A DNA stretch of 64,000 nt, taken from Planctomycetota bacterium. Its GTDB lineage: Bacteria > Planctomycetota > PLA2 > JAEUHO01. Position numbers: made by a program. The DNA is taken from contig JASJAY010000010.1 of assembly GCA_030066775.1 (NCBI GenBank), forward strand, positions 10,113 through 74,112, in the 5' to 3' direction. Below, one piece after another: positions 48,001 through 51,000 of this stretch; the first letter of the stretch is position 1; each line of letters starts with the position of its first letter.

Positions 48001-51000
48001 GGGCGCCACCACGTTGCCGCGGCTCTTGGACATCTTCTCGGAGTCTTCGCCCAGGATGATGCCCTGGTTGCGCAGCTGCACCATGGGCTCGTCGCCCTTG
48101 ACGATGCCCATGTCGCGACACGCCTTGTGGAAGAAGCGCGTGTAGATCAGGTGCATCGTCGCGTGCTCGACGCCGCCCGTGTAGGTGTCCACCGGCATCC
48201 AGTAGTCGTACTCGGCGGGATCGAAGGGCCCGTCGTCGTACTGCGGGCTCAGGTAGCGCAGGTGGTACCACGACGAGCACATGAACGTGTCCATCGTGTC
48301 CGTCTCGCGCTCGCCGTCGCCGCCGCACTTCGGGCACGGCGTGTGGCGCCAGGTGGGATGCAGCTTCAGCGGGCTCTCGCCCGTGGGCCGCCACTCGACC
48401 TCCTCCGGCAGCATCACCGGCAGGTCGTCCTCGGGCACGGCGACGGGGCCGCAGCGGTCGCAGTGCACGATCGGAATCGGCGCGCCCCAGTAGCGTTGCC
48501 GCGAGATCAGCCAGTCGCGCAGGCGATACGAGACCGCCGCGCGGCCCACGCCCTTCGACTCGAGGTAGGCGTTGACCTTCCCCATCGCCTCGGACTCGGG
48601 CGTGCCGGTCAGCTCACACGAGGCCACCATCGCGCCTTTGGCCTCCACGGCCTCCGTCATGGCGTCCGGGTCCGGCGGCGTCTCGCCCTCGGGGACGATC
48701 ACGGGCCGGATCGCCAGCCCGAACTCGCGCGCGAACTCGAAGTCACGCTGGTCGTGCGCCGGCACGGCCATGATGGCGCCGGTGCCGTACGACATGAGTA
48801 CGTAGTCCGCGATCCAGACGGGGATCTTCTCCCCGTTGACGGGGTTGACGGCGTAGCCGCCCGTGAAGACGCCGGTCTTCTCGCGACCAACGGCTTCGCG
48901 CTGCACGTCCGTCTGGCGCGACGCTTCCTCGACGTAGGCCTCGACGGCCTCCTTCTGCTCGGCCGTGGTCAGCTTGGCGACCAGCGGATGCTCGGGCGCC
49001 AGCACCATGAAGGTCACGCCCCAGAGCGTGTCCGGGCGCGTGGTGAAGATCTCGAGCTCGTCGTCCTGCTCCGTACGGAACACGACGGACGCGCCTTCGG
49101 ACCGCCCGATCCAGTTCGTCTGCAGCGCCTGGATGCGCTCGGGCCAGTCGATGCCCTCGTGGGACAGGAGCTCCTCGGCGTAGGCCGTGGTCTTGAAGAA
49201 CCACTGGTTCAGCTCACGCTTCGTGACGGGCGTGTCGCAGCGCTCGCAGAGGCGCGCGTCGCCGATGACCTGCTCCCGGGCCAGGGTCGTGTTGCACTGC
49301 GGACACCAGTCGACCGGCGAGTGCTTGCGGTAAGCGTGGTCGTGCTCGAACAGCTTCAGGAACAGCCACTGGGTCCAGCGGTAGTACTCGGGATCGGAGC
49401 TGATCGCCTCGCGACGCCAGTCGATCATCATGCCCATGCGCTTGAGCTGCCCGCGCATCCGCTCGATGTTCGCGTAGGTCCAGTCCTTCGGCGGGATGTT
49501 GCGCTTGATCGCGGCGTTCTCGGCCGGCAGACCGAACGAGTCGAAGCCCATGGGGAACAGGACGTTGTAGCCCTGCATGCGCATGAAGCGGGCGCGGGCG
49601 TCCGAGGGCGCCATCGCGTACCAGTGGCCGATGTGCAGGTCGCCCGACGGGTACGGGAGCATCGTGAGCGCGTAGTGCTTCGGCTGCGCCGGGTCCACGT
49701 CGGAGCGATAGAGCCCCTCCGCCTCCCAGCGTTCCTGCCAGGTGCGCTCGATGGTGTGCGGGTCGTATCCCGCCGTCGCTTTCGTCGTCTCGGCCACGGC
49801 CCTGGGCCCCTTCCGTCAGCGCCGCCGGAGCACCCGGCGACAGGCCGGATGATAGCCCTCGACCGACGCGGACCGGACGGGAGGCGGGGGCGATCCACGC
49901 CTGCGGGGCTCCTCGCCTTGCCACGTGAAACCCGCGGGGCGCGGGACGCATCGGGGGAACATGCGGGCTGCGCGGCGGACCCGCCGCCCCCCCTACCCCG
50001 AGGAGAGCCACGTGGGACGACTGCAGCGACGACTCGACGCGATCAAGAAGGGCTTCCATGAGCAGGCCCCGGCCGAGGCCATCGAGGCGATGTCGCGTGC
50101 CACAGCCGAGCTCCAGACCGACGTGGACGGCCGCGGGCTCGAGTTCGTCGGCAAGCCGCTGCCCGCCTTCGAGCTCCCGGACAGCCAGGGGAACACGGTC
50201 CGCAGCGCGGACCTGCTGGCAGGTGGCCCGCTGGTGGTCGCCCTGTTCCGCGGAACGTGGTGACCCTACTGCGCCGCAGAGCTGGATGCTCTGTCCAAGC
50301 AGACGGACGCCCTCGCTGAGCACGACGCCCGGGTGATCGCGATCTCCCCGCAGGCGTCGGCCCACGACCGCGCGTTGATCGAGAGCCGCAAGCTGCGCTT
50401 CGAGATCCTCGACGATCGCGGCAACGCCTACGCCCGCAGCCTCGGCCTGCTCAACGAGCTGCCCGACTACCTGCAGCCCGTGTACGGCTCGTTCGGTGTG
50501 GACCTGCCCGAGCACAACGCCGACGGGGCGTGGGCGCTGCCCGTGCCCGCCCGGTTCCTGCTGGACCGGGACGGCATCGTGCGCGACGCGGCGTTCAATG
50601 CCGACTACACGCAGCGTCCCGAGCCCGCGGACCTGATCGAGATGGTCGCCGCGTTGTAGGCCTTCGCTACCGGCGCCAGCGGAGCGAAAGCGTCGGCGGC
50701 AGGCTCGTCGGATCCGTGTCGAAGCTCAGGCTGGTGAAGCGCAAGAGCGACGCCACCTTGTCGAAGACGACCGCCACGCCGAAGCGCAGGCGGATGTCGA
50801 CGCGGGTGATGCCACGCGCGAGTGCGTCCTCGACGAGCGTCGTCACGTCCACGTTGTTCGGACCACGGGCCAGAGACGTCAGCCCGATCGTCGACTGCCG
50901 GGCCGTCGCCGTGAAGTCGGCCGCGTCCAGGGTCGGGCCCATGTCGATGCGCTCGGCGAAGAAGAGGCCGAGCAGGCCGAATGGATCGCCTTCCTCCTGC

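What the first reader, a model, noticed from the sequence alone, without database searches (positions are those of the whole stretch)
50012..50659. In-frame TGA exactly at the catalytic cysteine of a PRX_like2 peroxiredoxin-like gene: candidate selenoprotein
Two track ORFs (49925..50263 and 50333..50659) share one frame and are separated only by TGA 50261-50263. The joined product is colinear with the ~215-aa PRX_like2 family.

The TGA falls in FRGTW-[TGA]-PYC, the position of the first Cys of the conserved WCPYC redox motif. A stop codon at precisely the redox-active Cys is the hallmark of Sec/Cys pairs. Prx-like and thiol:disulfide oxidoreductase-like selenoproteins are known in Deltaproteobacteria-type lineages.

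Standard gene callers would annotate two fragments or a pseudogene here.
Basis: partly seen in the sequence, partly recalled or inferred. Interest (0 to 1): 0.7.

Follow-up and report, generated by a model that had tools for sequence, protein, structure and literature searches.

The report
Selenocysteine-coding peroxiredoxin-like gene, known family
The in-frame TGA is real and almost certainly codes for selenocysteine in a peroxiredoxin-like redox protein, but this selenoprotein family ("Prx-like 1", motif W-U-P-Y-C) has been known since the 2000s, so this is an ordinary, routinely mis-annotated member rather than a discovery.

Summary
One gene of 215 codons (50012-50659, + strand) has TGA at codon 84 (50261-50263), in FRGTW-U-PYC.

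- **Not an error.** Contigs from three independent marine-sediment runs all carry the TGA. All 7 polymorphisms seen in the gene are synonymous third-position changes, 4 before and 3 after the TGA.
- **Cys homologues.** Full-length homologues (45-47% identity) have Cys at this position, in W-C-P-Y-C.
- **TGA conserved.** Nine distinct homologues whose DNA I fetched (about 45-72% identity) all have TGA at this codon, and the frame stays open after it. Of the 150 best cluster representatives, 90 end exactly at this Trp.
- **SECIS-like hairpin.** A 7-bp stem with a 5-nt loop (50276-50294) starts 13 nt after the UGA. It meets every published criterion for a bacterial SECIS (selenocysteine insertion sequence), is conserved in the TGA forms and is absent from the Cys forms. 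It is built from codons that are rare in this genome, and synonymous sites there are unusually conserved (p = 3e-8).
- **Already described.** The 2008 GOS selenoproteome lists the same architecture as "Prx-like 1" (37% identity, E = 2e-49).
- **Two corrections.** Sec sits at the N-terminal Cys of the CxxC motif, which is the Thr position of true peroxiredoxins, not at the peroxidatic Cys. The host looks closer to Acidobacteriota than to Deltaproteobacteria.
- **Untested.** selA, selB, selC and selD are not in the window, and the rest of the genome was out of reach.

Verdict: a new member of a known kind, of low interest.

The parts
50012..50659 (+). Complete selenoprotein gene: 215 codons, GTG start, TAG stop. 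Prx-like (AhpC/TSA fold) thiol oxidoreductase with a U84-P-Y-C87 redox motif.
   Evidence: Colinear with 215-236-aa Cys homologues. Amino-acid identity to TGA-containing orthologues is the same before and after the TGA (0.71/0.73 for L026, 0.61/0.60 for L027).
50000..50005 (+). Shine-Dalgarno-like GAGGAG, 6 nt upstream of the GTG start.
   Evidence: Read directly from the sequence. The start position agrees with the N-termini of homologues.
50261..50263 (+). UGA codon 84, the predicted selenocysteine. It occupies the N-terminal position of the CxxC-type motif.
50270..50272 (+). TGC codon for Cys87, the invariant second redox residue. It aligns with the peroxidatic Cys of BCP/PrxQ peroxiredoxins.
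   Evidence: Invariant column C87. Alignment to 2ywn.
50276..50294 (+). Predicted bacterial SECIS core hairpin: stem 50276-50282 / 50288-50294 (7 bp, GCAGAGC/GCUCUGU), apical loop UGGAU at 50283-50287, 19 nt between the UGA and the loop, -10.5 kcal/mol.
   Evidence: Model criteria are from PMC13188914. Rare codons GCA, GAT and GCT. Excess synonymous conservation. Absent from the Cys forms.
50269..50302 (+). Possible lower stem (CUGC 50269-50272 pairing with GCAG 50299-50302) that extends the hairpin in this sequence only.
   Evidence: Minimum-free-energy fold. Not conserved in the other TGA forms, so its relevance is uncertain.

Best explanation
The region 50012-50659 is a single gene for a cytoplasmic Prx-like (AhpC/TSA fold) thiol oxidoreductase whose codon 84, UGA, is translated as selenocysteine.

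**Inferred mechanism of recoding.** This follows the established bacterial pathway. While the ribosome is at the UGA, the mRNA hairpin 13 nt downstream (GCAGAGC-UGGAU-GCUCUGU, 50276-50294) is bound by SelB-GTP carrying Sec-tRNA(Sec). This delivers Sec in competition with release factor 2, and translation continues to the TAG at 50657-50659.

**Inferred chemistry of the protein.** Sec84 and Cys87 sit at the N-terminus of the first helix of the thioredoxin-like fold and form a U-x-x-C redox pair. The selenolate of Sec84 is the likely attacking nucleophile on an oxidised substrate (a disulfide, sulfenate or peroxide). The resulting selenenylsulfide with Cys87 would then be re-reduced by a thioredoxin-type reductant.

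**Shown here:** the gene structure, the reality and conservation of the TGA, the conserved hairpin, and selection on both halves of the gene.

**Inferred only:** actual Sec insertion, the substrate and the reductant.
For: 1. **The TGA is real.** Contigs from 3 independent runs carry it, including a strain variant.
2. **Both halves are under selection.** All 7 polymorphisms within the gene are synonymous third-position changes, 4 upstream and 3 downstream of the TGA.
3. **Cys/TGA pairing.** Full-length homologues of 215-236 aa have WCPYC, and 105 of 136 retrieved proteins of 190-260 aa match the CxxC pattern.
4. **Fragment search.** A search with the 83-aa N-terminal fragment returned 15 other ORFs of 54-95 aa (13 of them 82-84 aa), all ending in ...RGxW.
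5. **Fetched DNA.** The nine distinct homologues whose DNA I fetched all have TGA at this codon, followed by PYC. In the four long enough to see it, the frame stays open to a normal C-terminus at 215-220 aa.
6. **Family size.** Of the best 150 representatives of 50%-identity clusters, 90 end exactly at this Trp.
7. **Equal conservation.** Identity to orthologues is the same before and after the TGA, and uncorrected pN/pS against L026 is 0.38 upstream and 0.31 downstream.
8. **Hairpin fits the bSECIS model.** The published criteria are a loop of 3-9 nt, a stem of 4-16 bp, a G in the first two loop positions, 16-37 nt spacing and MFE of -7.5 kcal/mol or lower (PMC13188914). The observed values are a 5-nt loop, a 7-bp stem, G at loop position 2, 19 nt spacing and -10.5 kcal/mol.
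9. **Hairpin is conserved in the TGA forms.** 92% of cells are paired, against 22-51% when the partners are slid.
10. **Hairpin is specific to the TGA forms.** Its energy is -8.4 to -11.9 kcal/mol in 7 of 9 TGA forms, against -1.0 to -6.5 at the same place in 7 Cys forms (6 distinct sequences), even where the peptide is the same AAEL.
11. **Rare codons.** The hairpin uses GCA, GAT and GCT, which make up 5%, 17% and 3% of their codon families in this window.
12. **Synonymous conservation.** In codons 85-95, 60 of 71 same-amino-acid codons are identical to the window's, against 343 of 665 elsewhere (Fisher p = 3e-8).
13. **No code reassignment.** TGA is the ordinary stop of 11 of 24 window genes.
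14. **Known family.** The GOS Dataset S1 lists WUPYC proteins of the same architecture under 'Prx-like 1'. One of them is 37% identical over 195 aa, E = 2e-49, with U aligned to codon 84.
Against: - No selA, selB or selD gene, no tRNA-Sec and no Rfam hit lies in the 64-kb window. The rest of the genome could not be reached, so the Sec-decoding trait of this organism is unproven.
- The stem shows no compensatory double changes. Its support comes from conservation and one-sided changes only.
- In a single sequence the fold energy of the region is not exceptional for this G+C content (z = -0.88).
- Two distant TGA forms (L017, L023) keep only the 4-bp core. The loop of L023 has its G at position 3, which falls outside the model.
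- There is no transcript or protein evidence. No RNA run holds the sequence.
Confidence: 0.9

Rival explanations
1. The gene is a pseudogene. A nonsense mutation (TGC/TGT to TGA) inactivated a Cys-type Prx-like gene, and nothing downstream of it is translated.
For: Gene callers in public databases do report only fragments. No Sec machinery is seen in the window.
Against: - The same TGA is found in 9 of 9 fetched homologues of about 45-72% identity, and 90 of 150 cluster representatives end at the same Trp.
- Downstream identity equals upstream identity.
- The 3 downstream polymorphisms are all synonymous.
- GC3 after the TGA is 0.94.
- There is a conserved hairpin built from rare codons.
Confidence: 0.02
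2. The TGA is a sequencing or assembly error, and the true codon is TGC or TGT.
For: The window alone offers a single assembly. A one-base change would give Cys.
Against: Independent Logan contigs from runs X1, X2 and X3 span the site without any difference. Two of them come from a variant strain with 4 SNPs nearby. Orthologues from unrelated assemblies also carry TGA.
Confidence: 0.01
3. The UGA is recoded, but to an amino acid other than Sec. One route would be Cys delivered by a non-canonical tRNA(Cys) with a UCA anticodon together with SelB. Such a system is known to me only from a paper title in a reference list (Vargas-Rodriguez et al. 2018, RNA Biol, cited in PMC8762117); I did not read the paper. 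Another route would be near-cognate read-through.
For: The sequence evidence (conserved UGA, SECIS-like hairpin, selection downstream) cannot tell which residue is inserted. The Sec biosynthesis genes selA and selD were not seen.
Against: Such systems are rare exceptions. The family was catalogued as a selenoprotein family in organisms that use Sec (PMC1794560; PMC2398784). TGA is a normal stop in 11 of 24 window genes, which rules out a general reassignment.
Confidence: 0.04
4. There are two separate small genes: an 83-aa N-terminal protein that ends at the TGA, and a 108-aa protein that starts at GTG 50333.
For: This is how automatic annotation splits the homologues.
Against: - The stretch 50264-50332 between the two called ORFs codes for conserved residues, namely PYC and the first helix.
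- A high-confidence model of a Cys homologue (mean pLDDT 96.6) shows one continuous BCP-like domain. The CxxC lies at the start of helix 85-96, and the beta-sheet strands come from both halves.
- No Shine-Dalgarno-like motif was looked for or noted before 50333.
Confidence: 0.02

Closest known systems
'Prx-like 1' selenoprotein family of the GOS and Sargasso Sea selenoproteomes, also called 'Prx-like thiol:disulfide oxidoreductase' (PF00578, UxxC). Sources: Zhang et al. 2006 PMC1794560; Zhang & Gladyshev 2008 PMC2398784; 2026 review PMC13188914.
   Same: PF00578 domain. A (F/Y)RGxW-U-P-Y-C motif with Sec at the same aligned position. The same length and the same N-terminal helical extension. 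The same C-terminal motifs (LP.P.R, ADPDYT.RPEP). 37% identity over 195 aa (E = 2e-49) to GOS read JCVI_READ_1091141146517, which is listed under '#Prx-like 1'.
   Different: Nothing essential. This copy is from a 70% G+C bacterium of marine sediment whose LeuRS is closest to Acidobacteriota/Thermoanaerobaculia, whereas the genomes listed in 2006 were mainly Deltaproteobacteria. I could not compare it directly with the review's reference protein, WP_010940744.1.
Examples are Pseudomonas frederiksbergensis P0009 and Paraburkholderia P0030.
   Same: 45-47% identity over the full length, the same fold, and W-C-P-Y-C in place of W-U-P-Y-C.
   Different: They have Cys (TGC/TGT) instead of UGA. They have no stable hairpin at the equivalent position (-1.0 to -6.5 kcal/mol).
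BCP/PrxQ and AhpE peroxiredoxins, for example S. solfataricus Bcp4 (3hjp), M. tuberculosis BcpB (5epf) and S. tokodaii PrxQ (2ywn/4g2e).
   Same: They are the best structural matches to the modelled Cys homologue (TM-score up to 0.92 normalised to the target, E = 1e-13). Cys87 aligns with their peroxidatic Cys.
   Different: The Thr of the peroxiredoxin TxxC motif is replaced by Sec/Cys. There is an extra N-terminal two-helix extension (residues 1-42). The catalytic Arg position is not conserved in the family: the consensus is 'PATY', while the window has 'PARF'. Sequence identity is only about 20%.
ResA / DsbE (CcmG) / TlpA thiol-disulfide oxidoreductases.
   Same: A W-C-x-x-C motif in which the first Cys, here Sec, is the N-terminal redox residue. 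They are the top sequence hits in the PDB (3kh7, 8.8e-7; 4nmu) and also good fold matches.
   Different: From general knowledge, those proteins are membrane-anchored or periplasmic cytochrome c maturation factors. This protein has no evident signal peptide and has a helical N-terminal extension instead. NCBIfam scores are far below the cut-offs (ResA 32 against 170, DsbE 24.7 against 359).
Other Sec-containing Prx-like families modelled in NCBIfam: PrxU (NF040737) and the SelL-related redox protein (NF040769).
   Same: Thioredoxin-fold or Prx-like selenoproteins with Sec in the redox motif.
   Different: The scores are 19.5 bits against a cut-off of 270, and 31.9 bits against a cut-off of 120, so this protein is not a member. 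Prx selenoproteins carry Sec at the peroxidatic position (TxxU, PMC2398784 Table 2; PrxU by my own knowledge), not at the first position.

Membership tests
Bacterial selenoprotein gene (SelB/SECIS-dependent UGA recoding) | An in-frame UGA aligned with a conserved redox Cys in homologues (a Cys/Sec pair) | tested here: met
   U84 aligns with C84 of WCPYC. That column is at least 90% conserved across the 64 Cys homologues aligned with it.
Bacterial selenoprotein gene (SelB/SECIS-dependent UGA recoding) | The UGA is conserved at the same codon in orthologues from other organisms, with the frame open downstream | tested here: met
   9 of 9 fetched homologues have TGA. 90 of 150 cluster representatives end at the preceding Trp.
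Bacterial selenoprotein gene (SelB/SECIS-dependent UGA recoding) | A bSECIS stem-loop just downstream: loop of 3-9 nt, stem of 4-16 bp, G in the first two loop positions, 16-37 nt from the UGA, MFE of -7.5 kcal/mol or lower | tested here: met
   Observed: loop UGGAU (5 nt), 7-bp stem, 19 nt spacing, -10.5 kcal/mol. Conserved in the TGA forms and absent from the Cys forms. No compensatory double changes were seen.
Bacterial selenoprotein gene (SelB/SECIS-dependent UGA recoding) | The sequence downstream of the UGA is under protein-level selection | tested here: met
   Identity is equal upstream and downstream, and pN/pS is 0.31 downstream. The 3 downstream SNPs are all synonymous.
Bacterial selenoprotein gene (SelB/SECIS-dependent UGA recoding) | The genome encodes selA, selB, selC (tRNA-Sec) and selD | not testable with these tools
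   None of them is in the 64-kb window. The source contig and genome are not in the searchable collections.
Bacterial selenoprotein gene (SelB/SECIS-dependent UGA recoding) | Selenium is physically incorporated at the UGA position | not testable with these tools
   This needs 75Se labelling or mass spectrometry.
'Prx-like 1' / Prx-like thiol:disulfide oxidoreductase selenoprotein family | An AhpC/TSA (PF00578) domain | tested here: met
   PF00578 at E = 1.3e-25 and 90.2 bits, against a gathering cut-off of 26.
'Prx-like 1' / Prx-like thiol:disulfide oxidoreductase selenoprotein family | A UxxC motif with Sec as the first residue | tested here: met
   W-U-P-Y-C. The family motif is given as UxxC in PMC2398784 Table 2.
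'Prx-like 1' / Prx-like thiol:disulfide oxidoreductase selenoprotein family | Direct sequence homology to published members | tested here: met
   37% identity over 195 aa, E = 2e-49, to a GOS '#Prx-like 1' sequence, with U aligned. The review's reference protein WP_010940744.1 could not be retrieved.
Canonical peroxiredoxin (PxxxTxxC plus catalytic Arg) | A conserved Thr/Ser three residues before the peroxidatic Cys | tested here: not met
   That position is occupied by Sec (Cys in homologues). Alignment to 2ywn puts its 'TQVC' against 'UPYC'.
Canonical peroxiredoxin (PxxxTxxC plus catalytic Arg) | A peroxidatic Cys | tested here: met
   C87 is invariant and aligns with the peroxiredoxin Cys.
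Canonical peroxiredoxin (PxxxTxxC plus catalytic Arg) | A conserved catalytic Arg before the beta-strand that follows | tested here: inconclusive
   The window has R181 in PVPARF, but the family consensus at this column is T ('PATY') and the column is not among those at least 90% conserved.
PrxU selenoprotein (NF040737) / SelL-related redox protein (NF040769) | A score above the curated NCBIfam cut-off | tested here: not met
   19.5 bits against 270, and 31.9 bits against 120.

The most novel reading that the evidence does not exclude
The conserved UGA plus hairpin module might direct SelB-dependent insertion of Cys through a non-canonical tRNA(Cys) with a UCA anticodon, rather than Sec, in this Acidobacteriota-like lineage. 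In that case the 'selenoprotein' would be selenium-independent. A milder variant also remains open. The 36-nt UGA-SECIS segment is nearly identical among genes that share only about 45-72% protein identity. It also recurs on many other contigs in the same sediments. This could reflect an unusually strict SelB-SECIS recognition code for this family.
Probability: 0.04. Interest if true: 0.55.

Novelty: new member of a known kind. Interest (0 to 1): 0.2.

Why it matters
The main value is for annotation. This gene and at least about 90 clusters of relatives in public protein collections are split into meaningless fragments of 82-84 aa and about 100 aa, because gene callers stop at the Sec codon. 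None of the NCBIfam models matched above its cut-off, so no model seen here would rescue the gene. Joining the fragments restores a complete redox enzyme. It also marks the host, an uncultured 70% G+C bacterium from marine sediment that carries genes for aerobic respiration, as a probable user of selenocysteine. Nothing here changes what is understood about selenoproteins.

Tried and rejected
- **Scans for related loci.** The one genome-contig scan and the one metagenome-contig scan with the joined protein found only distant Cys forms (28-44% identity). Neither found the source genome.
- **Exact look-up of the window's LeuRS.** It is not on record, so the genome could not be located and searched for sel genes.
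- **P0117 / L001.** This hit is 74% identical but covers only the C-terminal half, on a 637-bp contig with an unrelated upstream part. It says nothing about the TGA codon.
- **Cluster-member look-up.** It gave no organism names for the TGA-form fragments.
- **tRNA and Rfam scans.** ARAGORN found no tRNA in the window or in 10 related loci, and Rfam gave no hit in the window.
- **Promoter and terminator scan of 49700-51100.** Nothing was found.
- **RNA-seq runs.** None holds the gene.
- **Structure prediction of the window protein.** I modelled the closest Cys homologue, P0001, instead.
- **Other in-frame TGA candidates in the window.** The TGAs at 1313, 41397 and 55026 are junctions between adjacent genes in one frame, and the one at 36867 is antisense to a gene on the other strand. 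All were rejected.
- **Covariation in the hairpin.** There are no double compensatory changes. The structural argument therefore rests on conservation, rare codons and the contrast between Cys and Sec forms.
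Full report
**1. The observation**

ORFs 49925..50263 and 50333..50659 lie in the same + frame. The only stop between them is TGA at 50261-50263, and the translation reads ...VVALFRGTW*PYCAAELDALSK....

Third-position G+C is 0.87 before and 0.94 after the TGA in that frame, which is typical of coding sequence in this 70% G+C window. I scanned all six frames for a TGA flanked on both sides by coding-like composition. 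This site was the only candidate. The other four were three junctions between adjacent genes in one frame and one site antisense to a gene on the other strand.

The real start is GTG 50012, six bases after a GAGGAG. This matches the N-termini of homologues (MGRLQRRLDAIKKGF against MSLQEKLDAFKADF). The gene is therefore 50012-50659, 215 codons, with the TGA at codon 84.

**2. The TGA is not an error**

Four marine-sediment metagenome runs hold the region. Contigs from three of them (X1, X2, X3) span 50261-50263 with no difference. Two of these contigs belong to a strain variant that differs at 50209, 50221, 50224 and 50227.

All seven differences seen inside the gene across the runs are synonymous third-position changes. 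Four lie before the TGA and three after it. That pattern is expected only if both halves are translated and under selection.

TGA is also the ordinary stop of 11 of 24 genes in the window, so the genetic code is standard.

**3. What the protein is**

With Cys substituted at codon 84, the product matches Pfam AhpC-TSA (PF00578) at E = 1.3e-25 and Redoxin at E = 4.8e-18.

Full-length homologues of 215-236 aa are 45-47% identical over 96-100% of the length. Where a source names them, they are called "peroxiredoxin-like family protein". They carry W-C-P-Y-C: C84 is at least 90% conserved and C87 is invariant.

A model of the closest Cys homologue, P0001, has a mean pLDDT of 96.6. It shows a BCP/PrxQ-like thioredoxin fold preceded by two N-terminal helices (residues 3-36). 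The CxxC lies at the start of helix 85-96.

The best solved structural matches are Bcp4, BcpB, PrxQ and AhpE, with TM-scores up to 0.92 normalised to the target. ResA-type oxidoreductases follow.

Sequence alignments to PDB chains place the Sec position on the first Cys of the DsbE/ResA W-C-x-x-C motif. The same position aligns with the Thr of the peroxiredoxin T-x-x-C motif. Cys87 is the residue that aligns with the peroxidatic Cys.

The title of the finding ("exactly at the catalytic cysteine") is therefore slightly off. Sec is the N-terminal residue of a thioredoxin-style CxxC pair, not the equivalent of the peroxiredoxin peroxidatic Cys.

**4. Conservation of the TGA**

A search with the 83-residue N-terminal fragment returned 15 other proteins of 40-72% identity. 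Thirteen of them are 82-84 aa long (the other two are 54 and 95 aa), and all end in ...RGxW.

I fetched DNA for nine distinct ones (L017, L023, L026-L031). Each has TGA at this codon, followed by CC(C/G) TA(C/T) TGC (Pro-Tyr-Cys). Where the contig is long enough, the frame stays open and homologous to a normal C-terminus at 215-220 aa.

Amino-acid identity to the window protein is the same before and after the TGA: 0.71/0.73, 0.61/0.60, 0.51/0.50 and 0.45/0.42. For the closest pair, uncorrected pN/pS is 0.38 upstream and 0.31 downstream.

In an exhaustive search of 1.84 billion cluster representatives, 90 of the best 150 hits end exactly at the residue aligned to W83, and all of these end in RGxW. 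The TGA form is thus a large and widespread family, and gene callers truncate it systematically.

**5. The SECIS element**

Thirteen bases after the UGA lies the hairpin GCAGAGC-UGGAU-GCUCUGU (50276-50294). The published bacterial SECIS model requires the following (PMC13188914):

| Criterion | Model | Observed |
|---|---|---|
| Apical loop | 3-9 nt | 5 nt |
| Upper stem | 4-16 bp | 7 bp |
| G in the loop | within the first two positions | position 2 |
| Spacing from UGA to loop | 16-37 nt | 19 nt |
| Minimum free energy | -7.5 kcal/mol or lower | -10.5 kcal/mol |

A single hairpin in 70% G+C DNA is weak evidence. The 76-nt region folds with a z-score of only -0.88. I therefore tested it comparatively, in four ways.

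- **Pairing across TGA forms.** Across the nine TGA forms, 92% of stem cells pair, against 22-51% when the 3' partners are slid. There are three one-sided changes (A-U to G-U, G-C to G-U) and no double compensatory change.
- **Contrast with Cys forms.** The 19-nt element folds at -8.4 to -11.9 kcal/mol in seven of the nine TGA forms. In the seven Cys forms (six distinct sequences) the same positions fold at only -1.0 to -6.5 kcal/mol, even where the peptide is the same (CPYCAAEL).
- **Rare codons.** In the window the hairpin is built from three codons that are rare in this genome: GCA (5% of Ala codons), GAT (17% of Asp) and GCT (3% of Ala). GCT is used at that Ala in all nine TGA forms.
- **Synonymous sites.** Among codons that specify the same amino acid as the window, 60 of 71 in positions 85-95 are the identical codon, against 343 of 665 elsewhere. 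The pooled Fisher p is 3e-8, and all eight comparisons go in the same direction. The pairs are not independent.

In addition, at least ten other contigs in the same four runs match the window only over 50258-50293 (TGG TGA CCC TAC TGC plus the hairpin), with unlike flanks. This is what other members of the family that share the module would look like.

Two distant members (L017, L023) keep only the 4-bp GAGC/GCUC core. The loop of L023 has its G at position 3.

**6. What could not be shown**

The window holds no tRNA, no Rfam family and no protein that matches the NCBIfam models for SelA, SelB or SelD. The source contig is masked from or absent in the searchable collections. Whether the organism has the Sec machinery therefore remains untested.

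No RNA run holds the gene.

The best named LeuRS relatives of the host are Thermoanaerobaculia/Acidobacteriota MAGs at 71-73% identity. The best hit overall is unnamed, at 76%.

**7. Mechanism**

From the established bacterial pathway, I infer that SelB-GTP carrying Sec-tRNA(Sec) binds the hairpin and decodes UGA84. The mature protein then carries a Sec84-x-x-Cys87 pair at the N-terminus of helix 1.

The most likely chemistry is attack by the Sec84 selenolate on an oxidised substrate, followed by formation of a Se-S bond with Cys87 and re-reduction by a thioredoxin-type system. Because Cys87 sits at the peroxidatic position and the fold is BCP-like, a peroxidase cycle with Sec as the partner residue is the alternative. 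The data here cannot decide between the two.

**8. Comparison with what is known**

"Prx-like thiol:disulfide oxidoreductase" (PF00578, UxxC) is listed among the bacterial selenoprotein families "predicted with high confidence" (PMC13188914). It was found in Geobacter, Syntrophus and Desulfotalea genomes in 2006 (PMC1794560).

The GOS study counted 225 "Prx-like 1" (pfam00578, UxxC) selenoproteins and 2,740 Cys homologues (PMC2398784). Its Dataset S1 contains 67 occurrences of WUPYC. Sequences of exactly this architecture are listed under "#Prx-like 1". One of them is 37% identical to the window protein over 195 aa (E = 2e-49), with U at the aligned position.

The gene is therefore a member of a family described about two decades ago. 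It is not a member of PrxU or of the SelL-related family, since its NCBIfam scores are far below their cut-offs. It also fails the Thr criterion of canonical peroxiredoxins.

**9. Verdict**

I put the confidence that this is a genuine Sec-coding gene at about 0.9. The remainder covers the untested Sec machinery and the small chance that a residue other than Sec is inserted.

Novelty: a new member of a known kind. Interest is low (0.2). The practical point is that this gene and many relatives are mis-annotated as fragments.

Noticed in passing
window 24018-29500 (+), 31756-33447 (+), 33914-34801 (+): A respiratory gene cluster. There is a large ORF with a molybdopterin-like part and an FeS part (QrcB/QrcC/DsrO-like, with a TAT-variant signal) and a membrane subunit (DsrP/QrcD-like). 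These resemble alternative complex III. They are followed by ccoN-like and ccoP-like genes of a cbb3-type oxidase. This suggests an aerobic or microaerobic lifestyle for the host of the selenoprotein.
   Followed up: partly
window 61755-62942 (+) and 18996-20633 (+): Two more thiol-redox genes. One is a secreted DsbH/thioredoxin-like protein with the motif W-C-V-Y-C, a Cys form that hits selenoprotein models such as TsoB and VPGUxxT only weakly. The other is a VKOR-family protein.
   Followed up: partly
L017-L022, gene at about 10001-10654 of L017: In more than 20 contigs, the TGA-form Prx-like gene starts 4 nt after the stop of a TetR-family regulator gene. This suggests a conserved two-gene operon in that lineage. 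The window copy has no such partner; it sits divergently next to leuS.
   Followed up: no
L023 3504-4196 and 4592-5250; the same arrangement in L024 and L025: The TGA-form Prx-like gene lies about 400 nt downstream of a glutathione-peroxidase-family (PF00255) gene on the same strand. This may be an antioxidant gene pair.
   Followed up: no
runs X1-X4 laid on window 50258-50293: At least ten further contigs match only the 36 nt TGG-TGA-CCC-TAC-TGC plus the hairpin. Their flanks are unlike the window, for example ...TTCTTCCGCGGCGAC before the match. These are probably other members of the family in the same sediments. The tool does not return their sequences.
   Followed up: partly
L001 (637 bp; P0117): This contig holds only the C-terminal 40% of a 74%-identical homologue, joined to unrelated upstream sequence. 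It is either a truncated gene copy or a chimeric contig.
   Followed up: partly
proteins P0143 (431 aa), P0219 (433 aa), P0213 (420 aa), P0176 (294 aa): These long representatives carry the Prx-like N-terminal region at about residues 210-299. They are fusion proteins with an unknown N-terminal domain of about 200 aa.
   Followed up: no
window 4440-5624 (+), 12210-14375 (+), 2-1312 (-), 15482-17791 (+): Two Ser/Thr protein kinases (PknB-like) and two PAS-domain histidine kinases, one of them a hybrid CckA/EspA-like kinase. This is a signalling-rich genome of the kind seen in Myxococcota and Acidobacteriota.
   Followed up: no
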